From the NCBI RefSeq assembly GCF_013315695.1, contig NZ_CP054353.1: a stretch of 64,000 nt of DNA. The stretch is one strand, 5' to 3'. Position 1 is the first letter of the stretch. Each line of letters opens with the position of its first letter. This DNA comes from Escherichia coli. GTDB taxonomy: Bacteria; Pseudomonadota; Gammaproteobacteria; Enterobacterales; Enterobacteriaceae. Of the stretch, positions 18,001 to 27,000 are shown one piece after another. Position numbers: made by a program.

Positions 18001-21000
18001 TGGTAAGATTGGCCTGGTTACGCTGGGCGTTGCCGTAGTGATGCTATTGATGGTGCCGTGGCTGAAACGCATGATTGCGACGCCGGAAAGCCATAGCTAG
18101 TTTCCCATTCTCCCGACCAGCAATCGCCGGTCGGGATCCTCTCTGGTTTAACTTCCCGCCAAAATCAAACACGCACAAAACCGCACAAAAACCTCTATTC
18201 ACGCAGAGTCACGCATTAATAATTCTATTAACAAGAAATATTTGAATCCTGGAAAGCAATACGCAAAATTAATGAAAACAGTGCAACCAATTGTTTAATA
18301 TGAAAATATAATAAATCATGTGATTCATCTCTCAAATATTAACGATCTCCATAGGCAATGCATGTTTCTGCGCATAAATTACAAACATGCAAAAACACGC
18401 ATTAAGATGTAAACAAAATGATGCTGGCTGCATAAAAATCATGCTGGCAGTAAGCCTTAATCAATGAAGAAACGTGGAGAATGAAGATGGATCAAGCAAA
18501 CAAATGGTTGGATCTCTCAGGAAAAGTGGTGATCGTGACCGGGGGCAGTATGGGGTTAGGCGAAAAAATGGTCGAAAACCTCTCTGCAAATGGCGCAAAT
18601 GTCGTTTATGCCGATCTGGCTCCCAACCAGAGCTTTAATGAGATGGAAGGCATTACCTTTATAAAATGTGATGTCACAAAAAAGACCCAGGTTGAAGCTC
18701 TCACACAGACAGTCGTAGAAAAGTTTGGTCATATTGATGGCCTGGTTAATAACGCCGGGGTCAGCCGCCCGCGACTGTTGGTCGATGTATTTAAACAAAA
18801 ACCAGAGTACGAACTTAGTGAAGACGACTTTGATTTTATGGTGGGAGTGAATCAAAAAGCCGTTTACCTGGTATCGCAGGCCGTAGCTCGTCAGATGGTC
18901 GAACAGCAGTCAGGCGTCATTATTAATATGACATCTGAAGCAGGTGTTCAGGGATCGCGTGGACAAAGCTGTTATTCAGCGACAAAAGCCGCCGTCAATG
19001 CATTCACCTTTTCATGGGCAAAAGAACTGGGTCCGTTTAACGTTCGCGTTGTCAGCGTTGAACCAGCTATAAACGTTCCTACTCCTATGAACAGCGAAGC
19101 GAATTTCCGTGCTCTTGCTTATACACGCGGCACAGATCCCTCACATGTTCATAAAGATTACAAAGGAATTATCCCGCTTGGTCGCCCTGGCAAACTCGAA
19201 GAAATCGCTGACTTAATTTCTTTCCTGGTTTCGGATCGTTCTTCCTACATTACCGGTTCCGTGATCAATATCACCGGCGGTAAATCACACCATTAATCAA
19301 TAATCACTAAAATGGAGCCGACCATGGGGAACAGTAAAATTGCCAATAGCCCTGCGTTAGCGAAAATAAGAAAGTTTGGTGGAGTAATGAGCGGCATGGT
19401 AATGCCGAATCTGGGTGCCTTTGTAGGATGGGGGTTAATGGCCGCTATCTTCATTCCTAACGGATGGTTTCCTAATGAAAAATTAGGCCAGATGGTCGGC
19501 CCCATCCTGAATTATCTTTTCCCATTACTTATTGGGTATACCGCAGGTTATAACATTCACGGTCAGCGCGGAGGGGTCATCGCTGCTTTCGCAACGATGG
19601 GCGTCATCGTAGGTTCTGAAATAACCATGATAAGCGGCGCGATGGTCATGGGGCCGTTATCGTCCTGGCTATTGAAAAAGTTTGACCAGAAAGTACAGCA
19701 CCGAATTAAACCTGGCTTCGAGATGTTTGTAAATAATTTCAGTCTGGGAATAATAGGACTGCTTTGTGCAATCTTTGCTTATATGACAGTGGGGCCGGTT
19801 ATCCGCGTCCTGATCGTTATTATCACTTCAGGCGTGAACTGGTGTACCAGTCATAATTTACTGCCGTTACTATCAGTATTTATGGCTCCTGCACAGGTGC
19901 TTTTCCTGAATAACGTGGTGAACCACGGTATTCTCGCGCCAATTGGTTTTGCCCAAGTTCCTGAATTGGGTAAATCAATTATGTTCCTTGTGGATACCAA
20001 TAACGGTCCCTTGCTCGGAACATTGATGGCCATCGCCCTGTTTGGTCGTAGTCGTGCGAAGAAAACAGCACCAATGGCGATGTTTATCGCCGGTATTGCA
20101 GGGATTGGTGAAGTCTACTTCCCGTTTGTACTGGCTAATCCGTTGTTAGTCTTCGCAACAATGGGCGGCCTTGCTGTCTCTTTGTTCTTACAGGTGATCA
20201 TGGGCGGCGGTTTGATCGGTGTGGCTTCGCCGGGGAGTTTGATCGCCATCGCCATGATGACGCCTAAAAGTGCGATTATTGCCAACCTGGTATCTATCAG
20301 CGCCGGTTTTGTCGTCTCCTGTACACTTGGCTGGTTAATTCTCAAAATTAGCCCCGGTTCAGAAGATGATGACGAAGAAAATCCGGTCATCGTCGGTGGT
20401 CGTCAGGTGAGATCTGTTAGCGACTTTGTCCCTGGCATCTCAAACGTGACGGCGGCAACCAGTAATAAAACCGTTCAACGCATTTTGGTTGCCTGTGATT
20501 CAGGTATGGGGTCCAGCGCGATGGGGGCATCTGTTTTACGAAAACGGTTAAAAGCTGAAGGGCTCGATTACATAACTGTTGTCAACGATTCCGCAAACAG
20601 AGTAGGTAGAGATTACGATATTGTCATTACGCTTTCCGGACTACTCGAACGCGCAAGACTAAGTTGCGAGAATGAAAATACTGTTTTTATGACGGTGAAA
20701 AACTTTATTAAGTTAAGTGACTATGATGAGGCAGTGTCCTATATAAAAACGCAAGAAAATGTTACTCAACGTGAGGAGGCGACGGCATGACATCCATTTT
20801 CTCACCGAATAACATTATCCTGAACGCAAAAGCAGGAGATAAATACGAGGCTATTACTCTTACTGGTAATATTCTTAAACAAAATGGTTATGTCACTGAA
20901 GAATACATCCAGAGAATGAAACTAAGGGAGGAGATCGTTTCAACCTATCTTGGTAATGGTCTGGCAATTCCCCATGGCACTGATGGTTCAGATTGCGAGA

Positions 21001-24000: not shown

Positions 24001-27000
24001 GTGATGCCCTGGCAACCTGGTTTGAAGCCGAAGATTGCCGGATCAAAGGCGCAGGAAATATGACCGGGCGTCCGGGGCCGATGTCTGCCTATGCGCTGGC
24101 GAAATTGTGCTTCGACACCATCCTGGAGTACGGCGAACAGGCGGTAACGGCTTGCCGTATGCATCAGGTTACCCCCGCCCTTGAACATGTTATCGAAGCC
24201 AATACGCTACTTTCCGGGCTGGGCTTTGAGAGCGGCGGGCTTGCTGCCGCGCACGCCATTCATAACGGGCTGACGGTTGTGCCTGAAACGAAAGCGTTCT
24301 GGCATGGCGAAAAAGTGGCCTTTGGCACCCTGGCCATGCTGCTAATGACCGACAGAAAACCGGAGCTGATAGCCCAGGTTTATACGTTTTACCGAAGCGT
24401 GGGGCTGCCAGTGACGCTTGCCGAAATTGGCATCACCGATAGTTCACCAGAGCATCTGATGAAAATTGCCCAGGCCGCCTGCCAGCCGGGCGAAACGATG
24501 CATAACGAACCTTTTGAGATCACGCCAGAAAGCGTCGTCGCGGCTTTAATTGCTGCCGACGCATACGGCAAAAAATACCATTAATTATCTCAGATTGTTG
24601 ACAAAGTGCGCTTTGTTCATGCCGGATGCGGCGTGAACGCCTTATCCGGCCTACAAAATCATGCAAATTCAATATATTGCACAAACCACGTAGGCCTGAT
24701 AAGGCGTAGCGCATCAGGCAGTTTTTTCGTTTGTCATCAGTCTCTTTTTTATGCGAAAACCCGTTCGAGAATTTGCCAGTGACTGGTCACTTTGCCGTCA
24801 GCAAGCGTAAAGCGCGGGTCGTCCTGCTGGTGCTCTGCCGGTAGCGCAATAACTTGCATACCCGCCGCTTTTGCCGCAACCACGCCATTGAGCGAATCTT
24901 CAATCACCAGGCAAAATTCTGGCTCTTGACCTGTCATCAATGCGGCGGTGAGAAAAATCTCCGGATGCGGTTTGCCTTGCGCCAGCCCTTCGGCAGAAAT
25001 CACGACGGAGAAATAGTGGCGCATATTCAGCGTGCTGAGAACATTATCTATCTGCCGCTGCGGTGAAGATGACGCCACCGCCAGTGGAATATTGTGCTGA
25101 TGCAGGTGATTGAGTAATTCATATACCCCCGGCAATGGCGCAGGTTTTAGCCTGATTCGCCGGGCGACTTCTTCCACTATCGCATCATGCACCTGCCGGA
25201 GATTGTTGTCCGGGAGAGAATGGCGTTGATGCAACTTGCGTAAAAAGATAGTGACTGGCATACCGGTAAAAGGATCGAAATCTTCACGTTGCAGGGATAA
25301 GCCGTAATTGCGAAAGTAGTATTCGCACTCCACTTCTCGCCACACCGGTTCCGAATCAACAAGCACGCCATCCATATCAAAGATAACTGCTGCAAACATA
25401 GTTATTCCTTCAGATAAAAAAGCGCCATATCTGAAAACAGGCTTTCAGATATAGCGGAAATAATTGATGCAAATGGCATTTATTCCAGGTTGGCATGGAA
25501 CTGCCACAGCTCATGCATATTGATTTTTCTCTTACCGATTAATTCCAGGGCAACGATGTCCCCAAGCAGCAATAAAGATTGCTCGAAAAGAGAGGTCATC
25601 GGCTGAATGGAGGGGATTTCAGAAGGTAAGTTGAGTTTGGTTTTTACACCGATGCGTACAAAAAGGTCGCTATACGCTTTCATACTGCTTTCGGGGTTTG
25701 CACCAATATGCACAACGCTTGCATGAAAGCTTTTCGCTTTTCTGGCAATGCCGAGGGGAAACATGCTCTCACCGCTTCCGGAACCCACGATAAGCAGATC
25801 GCGCTCGGTAATGGCAGGCTCCGTAATTTGCCCGACAACGTAGGTTTTAATGCCCATATGCGCCAGCCGTTTTGCCATTGCCTGCAATGACAACAGCACC
25901 CGGCCAACGCCGACAAAAAAGACGTTCTCTGCCGCTTCGACCATTTCAATTAAGCGTTCAACCTCATCGGCGCTGATATTACCCAGCGTGGCGCGTAGTT
26001 CAGCCAACACCTTTTCCTGATTAGTCTGGTAACTCATTGCTGGCCTCCTGACTGTGCCAGACCTTCACTCACATGGCGATCCAACTGCGTTTTATTGTCA
26101 GCAAGCGTCGCGCCTTTAATAAACAGCCCGGTGCTGCCAAGTACCAGATTATTCGCGCCCGCGGCGATAAGCCCTGGGATCGAGGCAAAAGAAACCCGAC
26201 CATCGACCTGGATGGCGACGCTCGCATCTAACCCGCAAATTTTCTCTCGCAGGTTACGCACTTTTTCCATGGCATAAGGCACCTGTGTCTCATTTTTATC
26301 CCCCGCAAAGCCCGGATTAATCAACATCAACAAAACGTAATCCAGCGAAGGCAGAAGGTAATCCAGCGACGTTAAACTGGTGGCAGGATTTAACGCCACG
26401 CCAGCTTCAACATTGTGTTTTTTAATGAGATTGACCAGTCTGTCAGGGTGTAACGACGTCTCATAGTGAAAGGAAACTCGCTGCACGCCAATCTCGAGAA
26501 CCTGCTGGATAAACCACTCGTTATTCATCGACATAATGTGGATATCAAAAGGCAGGTTTGTCGCTTTACGTAACTGCTTAATCGTCTCCAGCCCCAGCGG
26601 CATACTGGGGCTGAAAGCGCTATCAATGAGATCAATATGCAGGGCATCGACGCCAATCTCCTCCAGCGCTTTTACCGCATCGCTCAAATTGAGCAAATCC
26701 GCGCACATCAGCGACGGAGATAAAACAATTTTCGGGGCAGCCATTTCAAATTCCTTCTTTTGCATGTTTTTGCGTATTTGAGATAATATGCGCATAAAAA
26801 CGCATAAACCATGCAGCAAAAGATGATCTGTGACGACGATCGAGATTTATCTCTTTAACCGTTTATTTTCAATAAATTAATCAACACAAAGAAATTACAA
26901 AACCATACACAGACTGCACGATTTTGCGTGTTTTAGTTATATAACAGCAGAGGAGGAGAAGGTTGAGGAGATCCGGGCAGCAACGCAGCCCGGCAATAAC

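What the first reader, a model, noticed from the sequence alone, without database searches (positions are those of the whole stretch)
18150..26950. Accessory polyol-type PTS catabolic island inserted between dtpB and rsmJ
In K-12, dtpB is followed directly by rsmJ as I recall. Here about 8.7 kb intervenes, flanked by AT-rich DNA and a REP/BIME element. The + strand carries SDR oxidoreductase, mannitol-family EIICB, EIIA, a DeoR regulator, an MtlD-like polyol-phosphate dehydrogenase, a dedicated HPr-like carrier and a GldA-like dehydrogenase. The - strand carries a HAD phosphatase, a SIS-type phospho-hexuloisomerase-like protein and an Rpe-like 3-epimerase. Three distinct dehydrogenases, a private HPr, and an isomerase/epimerase/phosphatase trio suggest uptake and stepwise conversion of an unusual sugar alcohol; the substrate cannot be inferred from sequence.
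Basis: partly seen in the sequence, partly recalled or inferred. Interest (0 to 1): 0.65.

Follow-up and report, generated by a model that had tools for sequence, protein, structure and literature searches.

The report
Rare uncharacterised sugar-alcohol uptake island
A rare 8.9-kb block of ten intact genes in this E. coli encodes a regulated uptake-and-breakdown system for an unidentified sugar alcohol, built around a gene set that is widespread in gut and plant-associated bacteria but has never been studied.

Summary
About 8.9 kb (window ~18095-27018) replaces the 48-nt dtpB-rsmJ spacer of K-12. It carries ten intact genes exactly as listed. The REP/BIME element is internal, not flanking. The island is in 16 of 5,426 complete E. 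coli genomes; 5,404 have the empty site. It sits at the same locus in Salmonella diarizonae and at a related uspA-prlC position in Superficieibacter.

It has no integrase, tRNA or direct repeats. RefSeq and NCBIfam give only generic names, and eight literature searches found no characterisation.

Comparative genomics shows a composite. The mannitol-family EIICB/EIIA, SDR, Rpe-like epimerase, PHI-like isomerase and HPr form a compact operon in Yersinia, Ewingella and Sodalis. SDR-EIICBA-MtlD-like-HAD forms a core in Enterococcus, Vagococcus, Lactobacillus and Anaerostipes. GldA occurs only in E. coli and Salmonella. Both island promoters share repeated TGCR boxes and CRP-like sites.

Most likely it is a DeoR/CRP-controlled PTS pathway for a polyol other than mannitol or sorbitol. 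The polyol phosphate would be oxidised to a ketose phosphate, which the epimerase/isomerase pair feeds into central metabolism. The substrate is unresolved: rare hexitol or pentitol. Moderately interesting; a new variant of a known kind.

The parts
18095..18486 (+). Left junction and promoter/operator region of the + strand operon. Contains the dtpB-proximal hairpin 18111-18136, repeated TGCR/YGCA boxes (18166-18219, 18357-18405) and a CRP-like site at 18316-18337.
   Evidence: Homology with the empty site ends at 18094. Repeats. Box enrichment. CRP-like site with 9/10 core. GC 0.39-0.41.
18487..19296 (+). SDR-family oxidoreductase, a putative polyol-phosphate dehydrogenase.
   Evidence: NCBIfam PRK06171 subfamily 360 bits (cut-off 304), but SrlD equivalog 149 vs 307. 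29% identical to K-12 SrlD. TGxxxGxG and YxxxK motifs are readable. It accompanies this EIICB type in all 18 loci that carry the 56-91%-identical form; the Ewingella locus, where EIICB is split at 46-56%, also has it.
19324..20790 (+). Mannitol-family PTS EIICB.
   Evidence: PRK15083 506 bits (cut-off 589) and TIGR00851 390 (cut-off 468). 45% identical to MtlA and 38% to CmtA. EIIB Cys motif ACDSGMGSSAMG.
20787..21215 (+). PTS EIIA (EIIA_2 type), most similar to the FruB N-terminal domain.
   Evidence: 42% identical to FruB.
21256..21954 (+). DeoR/GlpR-family regulator, the presumed repressor of both island transcription units.
   Evidence: 94-97% conserved in Salmonella and Superficieibacter. 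Shared operator-like boxes at both promoters.
21972..23144 (+). Divergent mannitol-dehydrogenase-family protein (MtlDl), a putative polyol-phosphate dehydrogenase that is not MtlD.
   Evidence: Best M1PDH equivalog 152 bits vs cut-off 368. 26% identical to K-12 MtlD. Closest PDB entry 3H2Z, 115 bits. Family distribution.
23147..23434 (+). HPr-family phosphocarrier (FPr-like), found only in the enterobacterial versions.
   Evidence: TIGR01003 80 bits (cut-off 47.9). 40% identical to the FruB C-terminal domain. GIHARPG motif. Distribution.
23493..24584 (+). Glycerol-dehydrogenase-family (GldA-like) enzyme, a late addition found only in E. coli and Salmonella.
   Evidence: PRK09423 504 bits (cut-off 336). 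49% identical to K-12 GldA. Absent from Superficieibacter, the Enterobacteriaceae MAG and all Firmicutes loci. Higher GC, 0.54.
24600..24735 (.). REP/BIME repeat between the two convergent transcription units.
   Evidence: Query positions 6491-6646 hit every E. coli genome, with a median of 34 places per genome. Sequence.
24749..25399 (-). HAD-IA sugar/hexitol-phosphate phosphatase-like protein.
   Evidence: HxpB equivalog 188.8 bits vs cut-off 191. 34% identical to HxpB and 33-37% to the Firmicute and Dorea HADs that follow or accompany MtlDl.
25423..25456 (-). 15-bp hairpin followed by a T-run between the SIS and HAD genes. Possible terminator or attenuator.
25480..26037 (-). SIS-domain 6-phospho-3-hexuloisomerase-family protein (PHI').
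   Evidence: TIGR03127 172 bits (cut-off 160). Closest PDB entry is B. subtilis YckF/HxlB. Paired with the Rpe-like gene in every one of the 18 loci where this subfamily was seen.
26034..26744 (-). Ribulose-phosphate 3-epimerase paralogue (Rpe-like).
   Evidence: TIGR01163 183 bits vs 212.6; AlsE equivalog 146 vs 271. 35% identical to Rpe and 31% to AlsE. Metal and catalytic residues are kept. Subfamily-specific 3-residue loop insertion and VDGR motif.
26745..27018 (-). Promoter/operator region of the - strand operon and right junction. TGCR boxes at 26761-26815 and 26915-26939; TGTGA-N6-TCGAG at 26829.
   Evidence: Homology with the empty site resumes at 27019.

Best explanation
The island is a self-contained catabolic system, under repressor and catabolite control, for a sugar alcohol that is neither mannitol nor sorbitol.

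Proposed flow:
1. PEP -> EI -> the island's own FPr-like HPr -> EIIA -> EIICB. This takes up the polyol and phosphorylates it.
2. The SDR and/or the divergent MtlD-family enzyme oxidise the polyol phosphate with NAD(P)+ to a ketose phosphate that is not fructose-6-P. The two enzymes probably serve two epimeric or differently phosphorylated polyol phosphates.
3. The Rpe-like epimerase and the PHI-like isomerase, which always travel as a pair, convert this ketose phosphate into a central metabolite.

My preferred version is a rare hexitol of the allitol/altritol/talitol/galactitol/iditol type. Its ketohexose-6-P (psicose-, tagatose- or 3-hexulose-6-P) would be brought to fructose-6-P by carbonyl shift plus epimerisation.

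Other roles:
- The HAD phosphatase is a relief valve against accumulation of polyol phosphate.
- The GldA-like enzyme is a lineage-specific add-on, for redox or a side product.
- The DeoR protein represses both convergent transcription units through repeated TGCR boxes, and CRP activates them.

Shown: gene content, family membership, conservation, distribution, shared promoter motifs. Inferred: every biochemical step and the substrate class.
For: Family assignments with intact catalytic motifs.

Purifying selection: dN 0.04-0.27 against saturated dS versus Salmonella.

None of the enzymes reaches the equivalog cut-offs of MtlD, SrlD, AlsE or Rpe. They are 26-49% identical to the K-12 paralogues, so the island is not a copy of mtl, srl or als.

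Conserved partnerships across phyla:
- DeoR-SDR-EIICB(A)-MtlDl-HAD in Enterococcus, Vagococcus, Lactobacillus, Amphibacillus and Oceanobacillus. Anaerostipes has the same core without HAD.
- DeoR | EIIA-HPr-Rpe-PHI'-SDR-EIICB in Yersinia frederiksenii and Ewingella; the Sodalis locus has the same order but no gene is called at the SDR position.
- DeoR | Rpe-PHI'-MtlD-type-EIIA-EIICB in Alkalihalophilus, E. avium and Oceanobacillus.

In these compact operons the epimerase/isomerase pair is integral. That would be pointless if the dehydrogenase already produced fructose-6-P.

PHI' passes the PHI family cut-off. The same core is coupled to a genuine HPS+PHI pair in Amphibacillus. MtlDl is embedded with HPS+PHI in Lachnospiraceae mannitol-type operons and in ABC-transporter clusters. 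This points to hexulose-6-P chemistry.

Seven of the 15 paired TGCR boxes in the 64-kb window lie in the two island promoter regions. Similar boxes precede the orthologous operons in other genera. There is a CRP-like site at 18316-18337.
Against: No experiment or publication supports any step.

The only known PHI reaction is 3-hexulose-6-P <-> fructose-6-P. No known SDR or MtlD-family enzyme makes a 3-hexulose phosphate.

The Rpe-like protein is somewhat closer to true Rpe than to AlsE, which fits a pentulose substrate as well.

Several genomes carry the SDR-PTS-MtlDl(-HAD) core with no epimerase or isomerase within 9 kb: L. helsingborgensis, E. pallens and Anaerostipes. This is easier to explain if the product enters metabolism through housekeeping enzymes, as fructose-6-P, Ru5P or Xu5P would.

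The role of HPS in the related clusters is unexplained. So is the recurrent DHA/glycerol link, GldA here and a DAK-family kinase in Dorea and other clusters.

The operator and CRP sites are motif matches, not demonstrated binding sites.
Confidence: 0.45

Rival explanations
1. Pentitol version of the same machine. The PTS takes up ribitol and/or D-arabitol, possibly xylitol. SDR and MtlDl oxidise the pentitol phosphates to D-ribulose-5-P or D-xylulose-5-P. The Rpe-like enzyme interconverts these, and the SIS protein acts as a pentose-phosphate isomerase feeding the pentose phosphate pathway. HAD detoxifies pentitol phosphate.
For: Ru5P is the one ketose phosphate that naturally needs both an epimerase and an isomerase.

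Known PTS pentitol operons of Firmicutes carry two polyol-phosphate dehydrogenases. [quoted passage not shown] That the Listeria and L. casei operons also carry dedicated pentose-phosphate epimerase/isomerase genes is my recollection.

The Rpe-like protein scores higher on Rpe than on AlsE models. The best PDB hit of the SDR is a 'glucose/ribitol dehydrogenase'.

Core-only genomes fit a product handled by housekeeping Rpe/Rpi.

From memory, not tested here: Yersinia frederiksenii, Ewingella and E. avium, which carry the related compact operons, are D-arabitol-positive. E. coli MtlA is also known to accept D-arabitol.
Against: The SIS protein belongs to the PHI family (172 vs cut-off 160), not to RpiA/RpiB or KdsD/GutQ.

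The same core is linked to genuine HPS+PHI pairs in other lineages. These have no role with pentulose phosphates unless formaldehyde is present.

The Rpe-like subfamily has a conserved loop insertion and a VDGR motif that set it apart from housekeeping Rpe.

The characterised pentitol PTS systems use galactitol- or mannose-family transporters and MDR dehydrogenases, not these families.
Confidence: 0.25
2. A redundant second mannitol and/or sorbitol PTS. EIICB takes up mannitol and sorbitol, MtlDl oxidises mannitol-1-P and SDR oxidises sorbitol-6-P, both to fructose-6-P. The remaining genes are accessory.
For: RefSeq and NCBIfam names are 'PTS mannitol transporter', 'mannitol dehydrogenase' and 'sorbitol-6-phosphate dehydrogenase subunit'. 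EIICB is 45% identical to MtlA. The SDR passes the PRK06171 subfamily cut-off. Core-only genomes need no further enzymes.
Against: MtlDl scores 152 bits against M1PDH cut-offs of 269-719 and is 26% identical to MtlD. SDR scores 149 vs 307 on the SrlD equivalog. EIICB is below both mannitol-specific cut-offs.

E. coli already has mtl and srl in the core genome.

The epimerase/isomerase pair is an integral, promoter-proximal part of the related compact operons. It shares the regulator's boxes here, which makes no sense if fructose-6-P is the direct product.
Confidence: 0.12
3. Not primarily catabolic. The MtlD-like enzyme plus the HAD phosphatase would make a free polyol from a ketose phosphate, as a compatible solute or an NADH sink. 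The PTS would serve for re-uptake.
For: MtlDl and HAD are adjacent in nearly all Firmicute cores. The PDB search returns the Acinetobacter bifunctional mannitol-1-P dehydrogenase/phosphatase (7OCN family) among the few hits.
Against: The architecture is that of a catabolic regulon: PTS uptake genes, a DeoR repressor and a CRP-like site. In E. coli, HAD is on the other strand, behind a terminator-like hairpin. Related compact operons lack both MtlDl and HAD.
Confidence: 0.05
4. A cryptic or decaying remnant with no present function in E. coli, like the cmt operon.
For: Very rare, 16 of 5,426 genomes. In some genomes, related operons look disrupted: EIICB is split in Ewingella and MtlD in E. avium.
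Against: All ten reading frames are intact in both E. coli variants and in Salmonella and Superficieibacter. Non-synonymous divergence is low against saturated synonymous divergence. Catalytic motifs are kept. Regulatory motifs are conserved between genera.
Confidence: 0.05

Closest known systems
E. coli mannitol operon mtlADR (Mtl-family PTS plus mannitol-1-P 5-dehydrogenase)
   Same: Same transporter family, with EIIC-EIIB and an EIIA_2 domain. Same dehydrogenase superfamily for MtlDl. Same logic: PTS uptake followed by NAD-dependent oxidation of the polyol phosphate.
   Different: EIICB is 45% and MtlDl only 26% identical to MtlA and MtlD, both below the NCBIfam mannitol cut-offs. EIIA is separate and FruB-like. 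The regulator is DeoR-type, not MtlR. The island has seven further genes: SDR, DeoR, HPr, GldA, HAD, PHI' and Rpe-like.
E. coli cryptic cmtBA-yggP-yggF cluster (second Mtl-family PTS with an unusual dehydrogenase)
   Same: A Mtl-family EIICB with a separate EIIA, next to a non-MtlD dehydrogenase, with unknown physiological substrate.
   Different: CmtA is 38% identical to the island EIICB. Its dehydrogenase is a 425-aa MDR (YggP), not SDR or MtlD-like. It has no Rpe/PHI pair and is core rather than accessory.
PTS-dependent pentitol operons of Firmicutes (Listeria, E. avium, B. methanolicus atlABCD; L. casei ribitol operon)
   Same: PTS uptake of a polyol, two polyol-phosphate dehydrogenases, and dedicated sugar-phosphate interconversion genes in one regulon. 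Sources: PMC6685057; the Listeria and L. casei details are from memory.
   Different: Those systems use galactitol- or mannose-family PTS components, MDR-type dehydrogenases and RpiB-type isomerases. Here the PTS is Mtl-family, the dehydrogenases are SDR and MtlD-family, and the isomerase is PHI-family.
Ribulose monophosphate module HxlA/HxlB (3-hexulose-6-P synthase plus 6-phospho-3-hexuloisomerase)
   Same: The SIS protein passes the PHI family cut-off. Its closest solved relative is B. subtilis HxlB/YckF. Related loci carry genuine HPS+PHI pairs next to the same dehydrogenase and PTS genes.
   Different: There is no HPS in the window. PHI' scores lower (172 bits) than the HPS-linked PHIs (211-218 bits). 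It is always partnered with an Rpe paralogue under a DeoR regulator, inside polyol PTS operons, not in formaldehyde-responsive hxlR-hxlAB units.
D-allose/D-allulose pathway enzyme AlsE (allulose-6-P 3-epimerase)
   Same: An Rpe paralogue dedicated to converting a rare ketohexose-6-P into fructose-6-P. This is the role I propose for the island's Rpe-like enzyme.
   Different: 31% identity, and 146 bits against a cut-off of 271. The transport (ABC) and activation (kinase) logic differ, and als has no PHI-like partner.

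Membership tests
Mannitol (Mtl) family PTS, TC 4.A.2 | EIIC domain fused to an EIIB domain with the phosphorylatable Cys | tested here: met
   PRK15083 E=8.5e-152 over residues 16-489. PTS_EIIC+PTS_IIB Pfam on the Salmonella orthologue. Motif VACDSGMGSSAMG in the translation.
Mannitol (Mtl) family PTS, TC 4.A.2 | EIIA_2-type EIIA with the phosphorylatable His | tested here: met
   Separate 142-aa EIIA matches the FruB and MtlA IIA domains. Motif LAIPHGT.
Mannitol (Mtl) family PTS, TC 4.A.2 | Mannitol specificity (score above the curated mannitol-transporter cut-offs; transport assay) | tested here: not met
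   506 bits vs 589 (PRK15083) and 390 vs 468.4 (TIGR00851). 45% identity to MtlA. Transport itself is not testable here.
Canonical mannitol operon mtlADR | Mannitol-1-phosphate 5-dehydrogenase equivalog | tested here: not met
   Best M1PDH model 151.7 bits vs cut-off 368. 26% identity to K-12 MtlD.
Canonical mannitol operon mtlADR | MtlR-type regulator | tested here: not met
   The regulator is DeoR/GlpR-family. No MtlR-like ORF is present.
Glucitol/sorbitol operon srlAEBD-gutM-srlR-gutQ | Gut-family EII components (SrlA/SrlE/SrlB) | tested here: not met
   The only EII genes are Mtl-family. Compare the K-12 srl locus.
Glucitol/sorbitol operon srlAEBD-gutM-srlR-gutQ | SrlD-type sorbitol-6-P 2-dehydrogenase equivalog | tested here: not met
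   NF009050 148.9 bits vs 307. 29% identity to SrlD. The SDR does pass the broader PRK06171 subfamily model, 360 vs 304.
RuMP module (HxlA + HxlB) | 6-phospho-3-hexuloisomerase family membership | tested here: met
   TIGR03127 172.4 bits vs cut-off 160. Closest PDB entries 1M3S/1VIV, B. subtilis YckF. Activity not testable here.
RuMP module (HxlA + HxlB) | Adjacent 3-hexulose-6-phosphate synthase | tested here: not met
   No HPS-like ORF in or near the island. HPS is present only in related loci of Amphibacillus and Lachnospiraceae.
Ribulose-phosphate 3-epimerase (housekeeping Rpe) / AlsE | Score above the Rpe or AlsE equivalog cut-offs | tested here: not met
   TIGR01163 182.8 vs 212.6. NF004076 160.7 vs 165. 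AlsE 146.3 vs 271. Superfamily metal and catalytic residues are conserved, with a subfamily-specific loop insertion.
PTS pentitol operons of Firmicutes | Galactitol- or mannose-family PTS and MDR-type pentitol-phosphate dehydrogenase | tested here: not met
   The PTS is Mtl-family and the dehydrogenases are SDR and MtlD-family. Comparator described in PMC6685057.
PTS pentitol operons of Firmicutes | Growth on and induction by ribitol, D-arabitol or xylitol; dehydrogenase activity on pentitol phosphates | not testable with these tools
   Needs culture and enzyme assays.
Mobile genomic island (integrative element) | Integrase/transposase, tRNA or other attachment site, flanking direct repeats | tested here: not met
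   None among the ORFs. The junction alignment shows a clean replacement of the 48-nt spacer, without a duplication. No plasmid-borne homologue of MtlDl.

The most novel reading that the evidence does not exclude
The island belongs to a widespread, unrecognised class of PTS polyol pathways. In these, enzymes otherwise known from formaldehyde assimilation (6-phospho-3-hexuloisomerase, in some lineages with 3-hexulose-6-P synthase) and a dedicated Rpe paralogue have been recruited for sugar catabolism. 3-Hexulose-6-phosphate or its epimers would then be an intermediate of sugar-alcohol breakdown in non-methylotrophs. The epimerase/isomerase pair would carry out a net C3 or C4 epimerisation of a ketohexose-6-P by carbonyl migration.
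Probability: 0.3. Interest if true: 0.7.

Novelty: new variant of a known kind. Interest (0 to 1): 0.5.

Why it matters
If the model holds, it would assign a function to a gene set found in many gut and plant- or insect-associated bacteria. These include Enterococcus, Vagococcus, bee-gut Lactobacillus, Anaerostipes, Dorea, Yersinia, Ewingella, Sodalis, Salmonella diarizonae and rare E. coli lineages. At present the set carries only misleading 'mannitol/sorbitol/hexuloisomerase' names.

It would add a substrate to the short list of Mtl-family PTS specificities. It could also reveal a non-methylotrophic role for RuMP-type enzymes.

For E. coli itself the island is a rare niche-adaptation trait. 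It is present in blood, poultry, wastewater and wildlife isolates, and it is not a virulence or resistance determinant. Its practical importance is therefore modest.

Tried and rejected
1. Literature. Eight full-text searches found no paper on this gene set. They combined yhiP/yhiQ, hexuloisomerase, mannitol or sorbitol dehydrogenase, epimerase, PTS, DeoR, allitol/allulose-6-P, Anaerostipes/sorbitol and hxlB. The Anaerobutyricum sorbitol operon (PMC7702098) is the classical gut-type system and is unrelated.

2. Solved structures. None is close enough to transfer a specificity.

3. Identity with the core operons mtl, srl, cmt, als, gldA or hxpAB. Rejected at 26-49% identity.

4. RuMP formaldehyde module. 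Rejected for the window because HPS is absent.

5. Mobile element. Rejected: no integrase, repeats or tRNA, and nothing on plasmids.

6. Recent transfer between Salmonella and E. coli. Rejected: synonymous sites are saturated, more than in the flanking core genes.

7. HPS-like genes of related loci as UlaD/SgbH-type decarboxylases. Rejected: they score 264-271 bits on the HPS model against 106-132 on the decarboxylase models.

8. A first attempt to read the K-12 locus from a rotated MG1655 record gave the wrong region. It was repeated on NC_000913.3.

9. I could not decide between hexitol and pentitol by stereochemical reasoning alone. Several schemes fit and none is tested: psicose-6-P via 3-epimerase, tagatose/sorbose-6-P via 3-keto intermediates, Ru5P via Rpe plus isomerase.

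Full report
**Observation**

The window carries pitA, uspB, uspA and dtpB (16628-18100, +). Ten ORFs follow, and then rsmJ (27007-27765, -), prlC and rlmJ.

RefSeq annotation of an identical record gives the same ten genes with generic names. The window coordinates are:
- + strand: SDR 18487-19296; EIICB 19324-20790; EIIA 20787-21215; DeoR 21256-21954; mannitol-dehydrogenase-family protein 21972-23144; HPr 23147-23434; glycerol-dehydrogenase-family protein 23493-24584.
- - strand: HAD 24749-25399; SIS/'hxlB' 25480-26037; ribulose-phosphate-3-epimerase-family protein 26034-26744.

In K-12 MG1655, dtpB and rsmJ are 48 nt apart. A query made of the two flanks joined together finds that contiguous arrangement in 5,404 of 5,426 complete E. 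coli genomes. The island itself is found in 16.

Homology with an empty-site genome stops at 18094 and resumes at 27019. The last codons of dtpB and rsmJ and the whole spacer are replaced. There is no target duplication, integrase or tRNA.

Both ends are AT-rich. The REP/BIME element (24600-24735) is real. It matches every E. coli genome at a median of 34 places. But it lies between the two convergent gene groups, not at a flank.

**What the genes are**

| Product | Model | Score vs cut-off |
|---|---|---|
| EIICB | two mannitol-transporter models | 506 vs 589; 390 vs 468 |
| MtlD-like (MtlDl) | best M1PDH model | 152 vs 368 |
| SDR | 'sorbitol-6-P dehydrogenase subunit' subfamily | 360 vs 304 (passes) |
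| SDR | SrlD equivalog | 149 vs 307 |
| Rpe-like | Rpe | 183 vs 213 |
| Rpe-like | AlsE | 146 vs 271 |
| HAD | HxpB | 188.8 vs 191 |
| SIS protein | 6-phospho-3-hexuloisomerase (PHI) domain | 172 vs 160 (passes) |
| GldA-like | glycerol dehydrogenase subfamily | 504 vs 336 (passes) |

Identities to the K-12 paralogues are low:
- EIICB: 45% to MtlA, 38% to CmtA
- MtlDl: 26% to MtlD
- SDR: 29% to SrlD
- GldA-like: 49% to GldA
- Rpe-like: 35% to Rpe, 31% to AlsE
- HAD: 34% to HxpB
- EIIA and HPr: 42% and 40% to the two ends of FruB

Phosphorylation-site and catalytic motifs are readable in the translations. The Rpe-like protein keeps the metal and acid/base residues of the superfamily. It differs from Rpe and AlsE by a conserved three-residue insertion after NPGF(A/G)G and by VDGR in place of VDGG/VDGS. 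No solved structure is close.

**Relatives elsewhere**

Close homologues of MtlDl occur in Salmonella (87%), then in Superficieibacter and an Enterobacteriaceae MAG (83-84%). There is then a jump to Firmicutes at 42-60%: Enterococcus, Vagococcus, Oceanobacillus, Amphibacillus, bee-gut Lactobacillus, Anaerostipes, Dorea and other Lachnospiraceae.

In Salmonella the island sits at the same dtpB-rsmJ locus, with two extra genes. In Superficieibacter it follows uspA directly, and no dtpB- or rsmJ-like ORF is listed there.

Mapping the ten proteins onto 40 loci shows a recurrent Firmicute core: DeoR, SDR, EIICB(A), MtlDl, HAD. The Rpe-like/PHI-like pair is arranged in several ways:
- directly downstream in E. 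casseliflavus and Vagococcus;
- upstream of the SDR operon, beside a DeoR-like gene, in a Bacilli MAG;
- as a separate DeoR-Rpe-PHI' unit next door in E. alishanensis;
- in a neighbouring second PTS operon in Oceanobacillus;
- absent within 9 kb in L. helsingborgensis, E. pallens and Anaerostipes.

HPr occurs only in Enterobacterales. GldA occurs only in E. coli and Salmonella.

Searching from the SIS protein shows that its subfamily (65-72% identity) is much more widespread. It is always next to the Rpe-like gene, in two compact operon types:
- DeoR | EIIA-HPr-Rpe-PHI'-SDR-EIICB in Yersinia frederiksenii and Ewingella, and in Sodalis with no gene called at the SDR position. The Ewingella proteins are 46-70% identical to the island's.
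- DeoR | Rpe-PHI'-MtlD-type-EIIA-EIICB in Alkalihalophilus, E. avium and Oceanobacillus.

The E. coli island is thus the enterobacterial compact operon plus MtlDl, HAD and GldA, rearranged into two convergent units.

**An unexpected link**

In Amphibacillus the same core is coupled not to Rpe/PHI' but to a DeoR-HPS-PHI unit.

In Lachnospiraceae, MtlDl is embedded in mannitol-type operons together with HPS and one or two PHI genes. In other clusters it sits with an ABC transporter, a PfkB kinase, HPS, PHI and a dihydroxyacetone-kinase-family protein.

These HPS and PHI genes are genuine family members. HPS scores 264-271 bits against a cut-off of 200, and PHI 211-218 against 160. A PHI-family isomerase is therefore the one constant of every accessory module.

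**Regulation and evolution**

Pairs of TGCR/YGCA half-sites about 10 nt apart occur 15 times in the 64-kb window. Seven of them lie in the two island promoter regions, which together make up 0.8% of the sequence.

Similar 'AACATGCAAAAA / TGCGCATAAA' boxes precede the SDR and Rpe operons in Salmonella, Superficieibacter, Enterococcus, Oceanobacillus, Lactobacillus, Amphibacillus and Anaerostipes. A CRP-like site (9/10 core) lies at 18316-18337 and a weaker one at 26829. These are motif matches only. They argue that the two convergent units form one DeoR- and catabolite-controlled regulon.

Against Salmonella, dN is 0.04-0.27 while dS is saturated. The flanking core genes have dS of 0.85-1.4. 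The genes are therefore under purifying selection and the two islands separated long ago.

Within E. coli there are two variants. SDR to MtlDl is 99.4-100% identical between them. HPr to Rpe is 94.4-97.6%, like the adjacent rsmJ-prlC flank at 96.9%. This indicates recombination inside the island. No plasmid carries a close MtlDl homologue.

**Mechanism**

The shown facts support a PTS-dependent polyol catabolic regulon. My proposed flow is:
1. EI passes phosphate to the island's HPr, then EIIA, then EIICB. This gives uptake as a polyol phosphate.
2. SDR and/or MtlDl oxidise the polyol phosphate to a ketose phosphate.
3. Rpe-like and PHI' convert it to a central intermediate.

HAD would act as a phosphatase relief valve. 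GldA would be a lineage-specific addition. DeoR would repress and CRP would activate.

The epimerase/isomerase pair is integral and promoter-proximal in the compact relatives, so the dehydrogenase product is unlikely to be fructose-6-P. E. coli also already has mtl and srl. I therefore rate a redundant mannitol/sorbitol system as unlikely (0.12).

Two substrate classes remain.

- Hexitol reading (0.45 including the generic frame). It best explains the constant PHI-family partner and the HPS link. A psicose-, tagatose- or 3-hexulose-6-P would be brought to fructose-6-P by carbonyl shift and epimerisation.
- Pentitol reading (0.25). It best explains why an epimerase and an isomerase are both needed, since Ru5P must be converted to Xu5P and R5P. 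It also explains why some genomes manage without them, and why the Rpe-like protein is nearer to Rpe than to AlsE. It has precedents in PTS pentitol operons with two dehydrogenases (PMC6685057).

My recollection that Y. frederiksenii, Ewingella and E. avium are D-arabitol-positive is a lead, not a test.

Three things remain unexplained: the role of HPS in related clusters, the recurrent glycerol/DHA enzymes (GldA here, DAK elsewhere), and what MtlDl adds to an SDR-only system.

**Comparison with known systems, and novelty**

The island works like the mannitol, sorbitol and pentitol PTS operons, but it fails the defining tests of each (see the membership table). It is not the RuMP module because HPS is missing, and it is not a mobile element.

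I found no publication on it, and the June 2026 NCBIfam release has no specific model for its proteins. I class it as a new variant of a known kind. It is an uncharacterised, phylogenetically broad PTS polyol pathway that happens to be a rare accessory trait in E. coli.

Interest is moderate (0.5). It would rise to about 0.7 if 3-hexulose-6-P chemistry in sugar-alcohol catabolism were demonstrated, which I put at a probability of about 0.3.

Noticed in passing
window 1-883 (with Nissle locus L070 51-5651): The window opens inside the last gene (class II aldolase) of another accessory sugar cluster. In Nissle 1917 this cluster reads GntR regulator, EIIA, EIIB, galactitol-type EIIC, FGGY kinase, a private HPr and the aldolase. 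The window's first 865 nt are 99.8% identical to it. So there is a second PTS cluster with its own HPr about 17 kb from the island.
   Followed up: partly
window 18095-27018 versus L069 (E. coli DSM 103246): The island is mosaic between the two E. coli variants. SDR to MtlDl is 99.4-100% identical, but HPr, GldA, HAD, SIS and Rpe are only 94.4-97.6%, matching the unusually divergent rsmJ-prlC flank at 95.7-96.9%. A recombination breakpoint seems to lie near 23144-23147.
   Followed up: partly
L031 13421-14707, L018 136-1389; K-12 locus L079 4180-5457: The 417-428-aa zinc-dehydrogenase-like gene in Lachnospiraceae mannitol-type/HPS/PHI clusters is 47% identical to E. coli YggP. YggP is the uncharacterised dehydrogenase of the cryptic cmtBA operon. 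This suggests that cmt and these clusters share an unknown substrate logic.
   Followed up: no
L026 12622-15041; L039 10154-11779; L040 5002-6735: Dihydroxyacetone-kinase-family genes recur next to MtlD-like/HPS/PHI genes in Dorea and other Clostridia. E. coli and Salmonella instead carry a glycerol-dehydrogenase-family gene. This recurrent glycerol/DHA link is not explained by any model above.
   Followed up: partly
L023, L025, L027, L029 (Anaerostipes/Lachnospiraceae), about 4000-10155: More distant MtlD-like genes (48-51%) end a different cluster. It contains a 425-aa membrane protein resembling a Gat/Ula-type EIIC, a class II ketose-bisphosphate aldolase, a P-loop protein, a PfkB kinase and a DeoC-like aldolase. 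These assignments were read from the N-terminal sequences only and were not scanned.
   Followed up: no
window 6926-10483: Two long ORFs (540 and 557 aa, - strand) between yhiI and yhiM correspond to 'DUF4049 domain-containing proteins' in strain DSM 103246. They have no counterpart in the aligned Nissle region.
   Followed up: no
window 33163-38646: There is an ArsR-like regulator, an ArsB-like pump and arsC (33163-35298). They are followed by a second ArsR-family regulator with a permease (35319-36747) and two identical IS1 InsB-like ORFs (37114-37617, 38143-38646). Most of this stretch does not align with Nissle or DSM 103246.
   Followed up: no
window 25423-25456 (- strand): A strong 15-bp hairpin with a T-run separates the SIS gene from the HAD gene. 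The phosphatase may therefore be transcribed at a lower level than Rpe-PHI', or separately from them.
   Followed up: no
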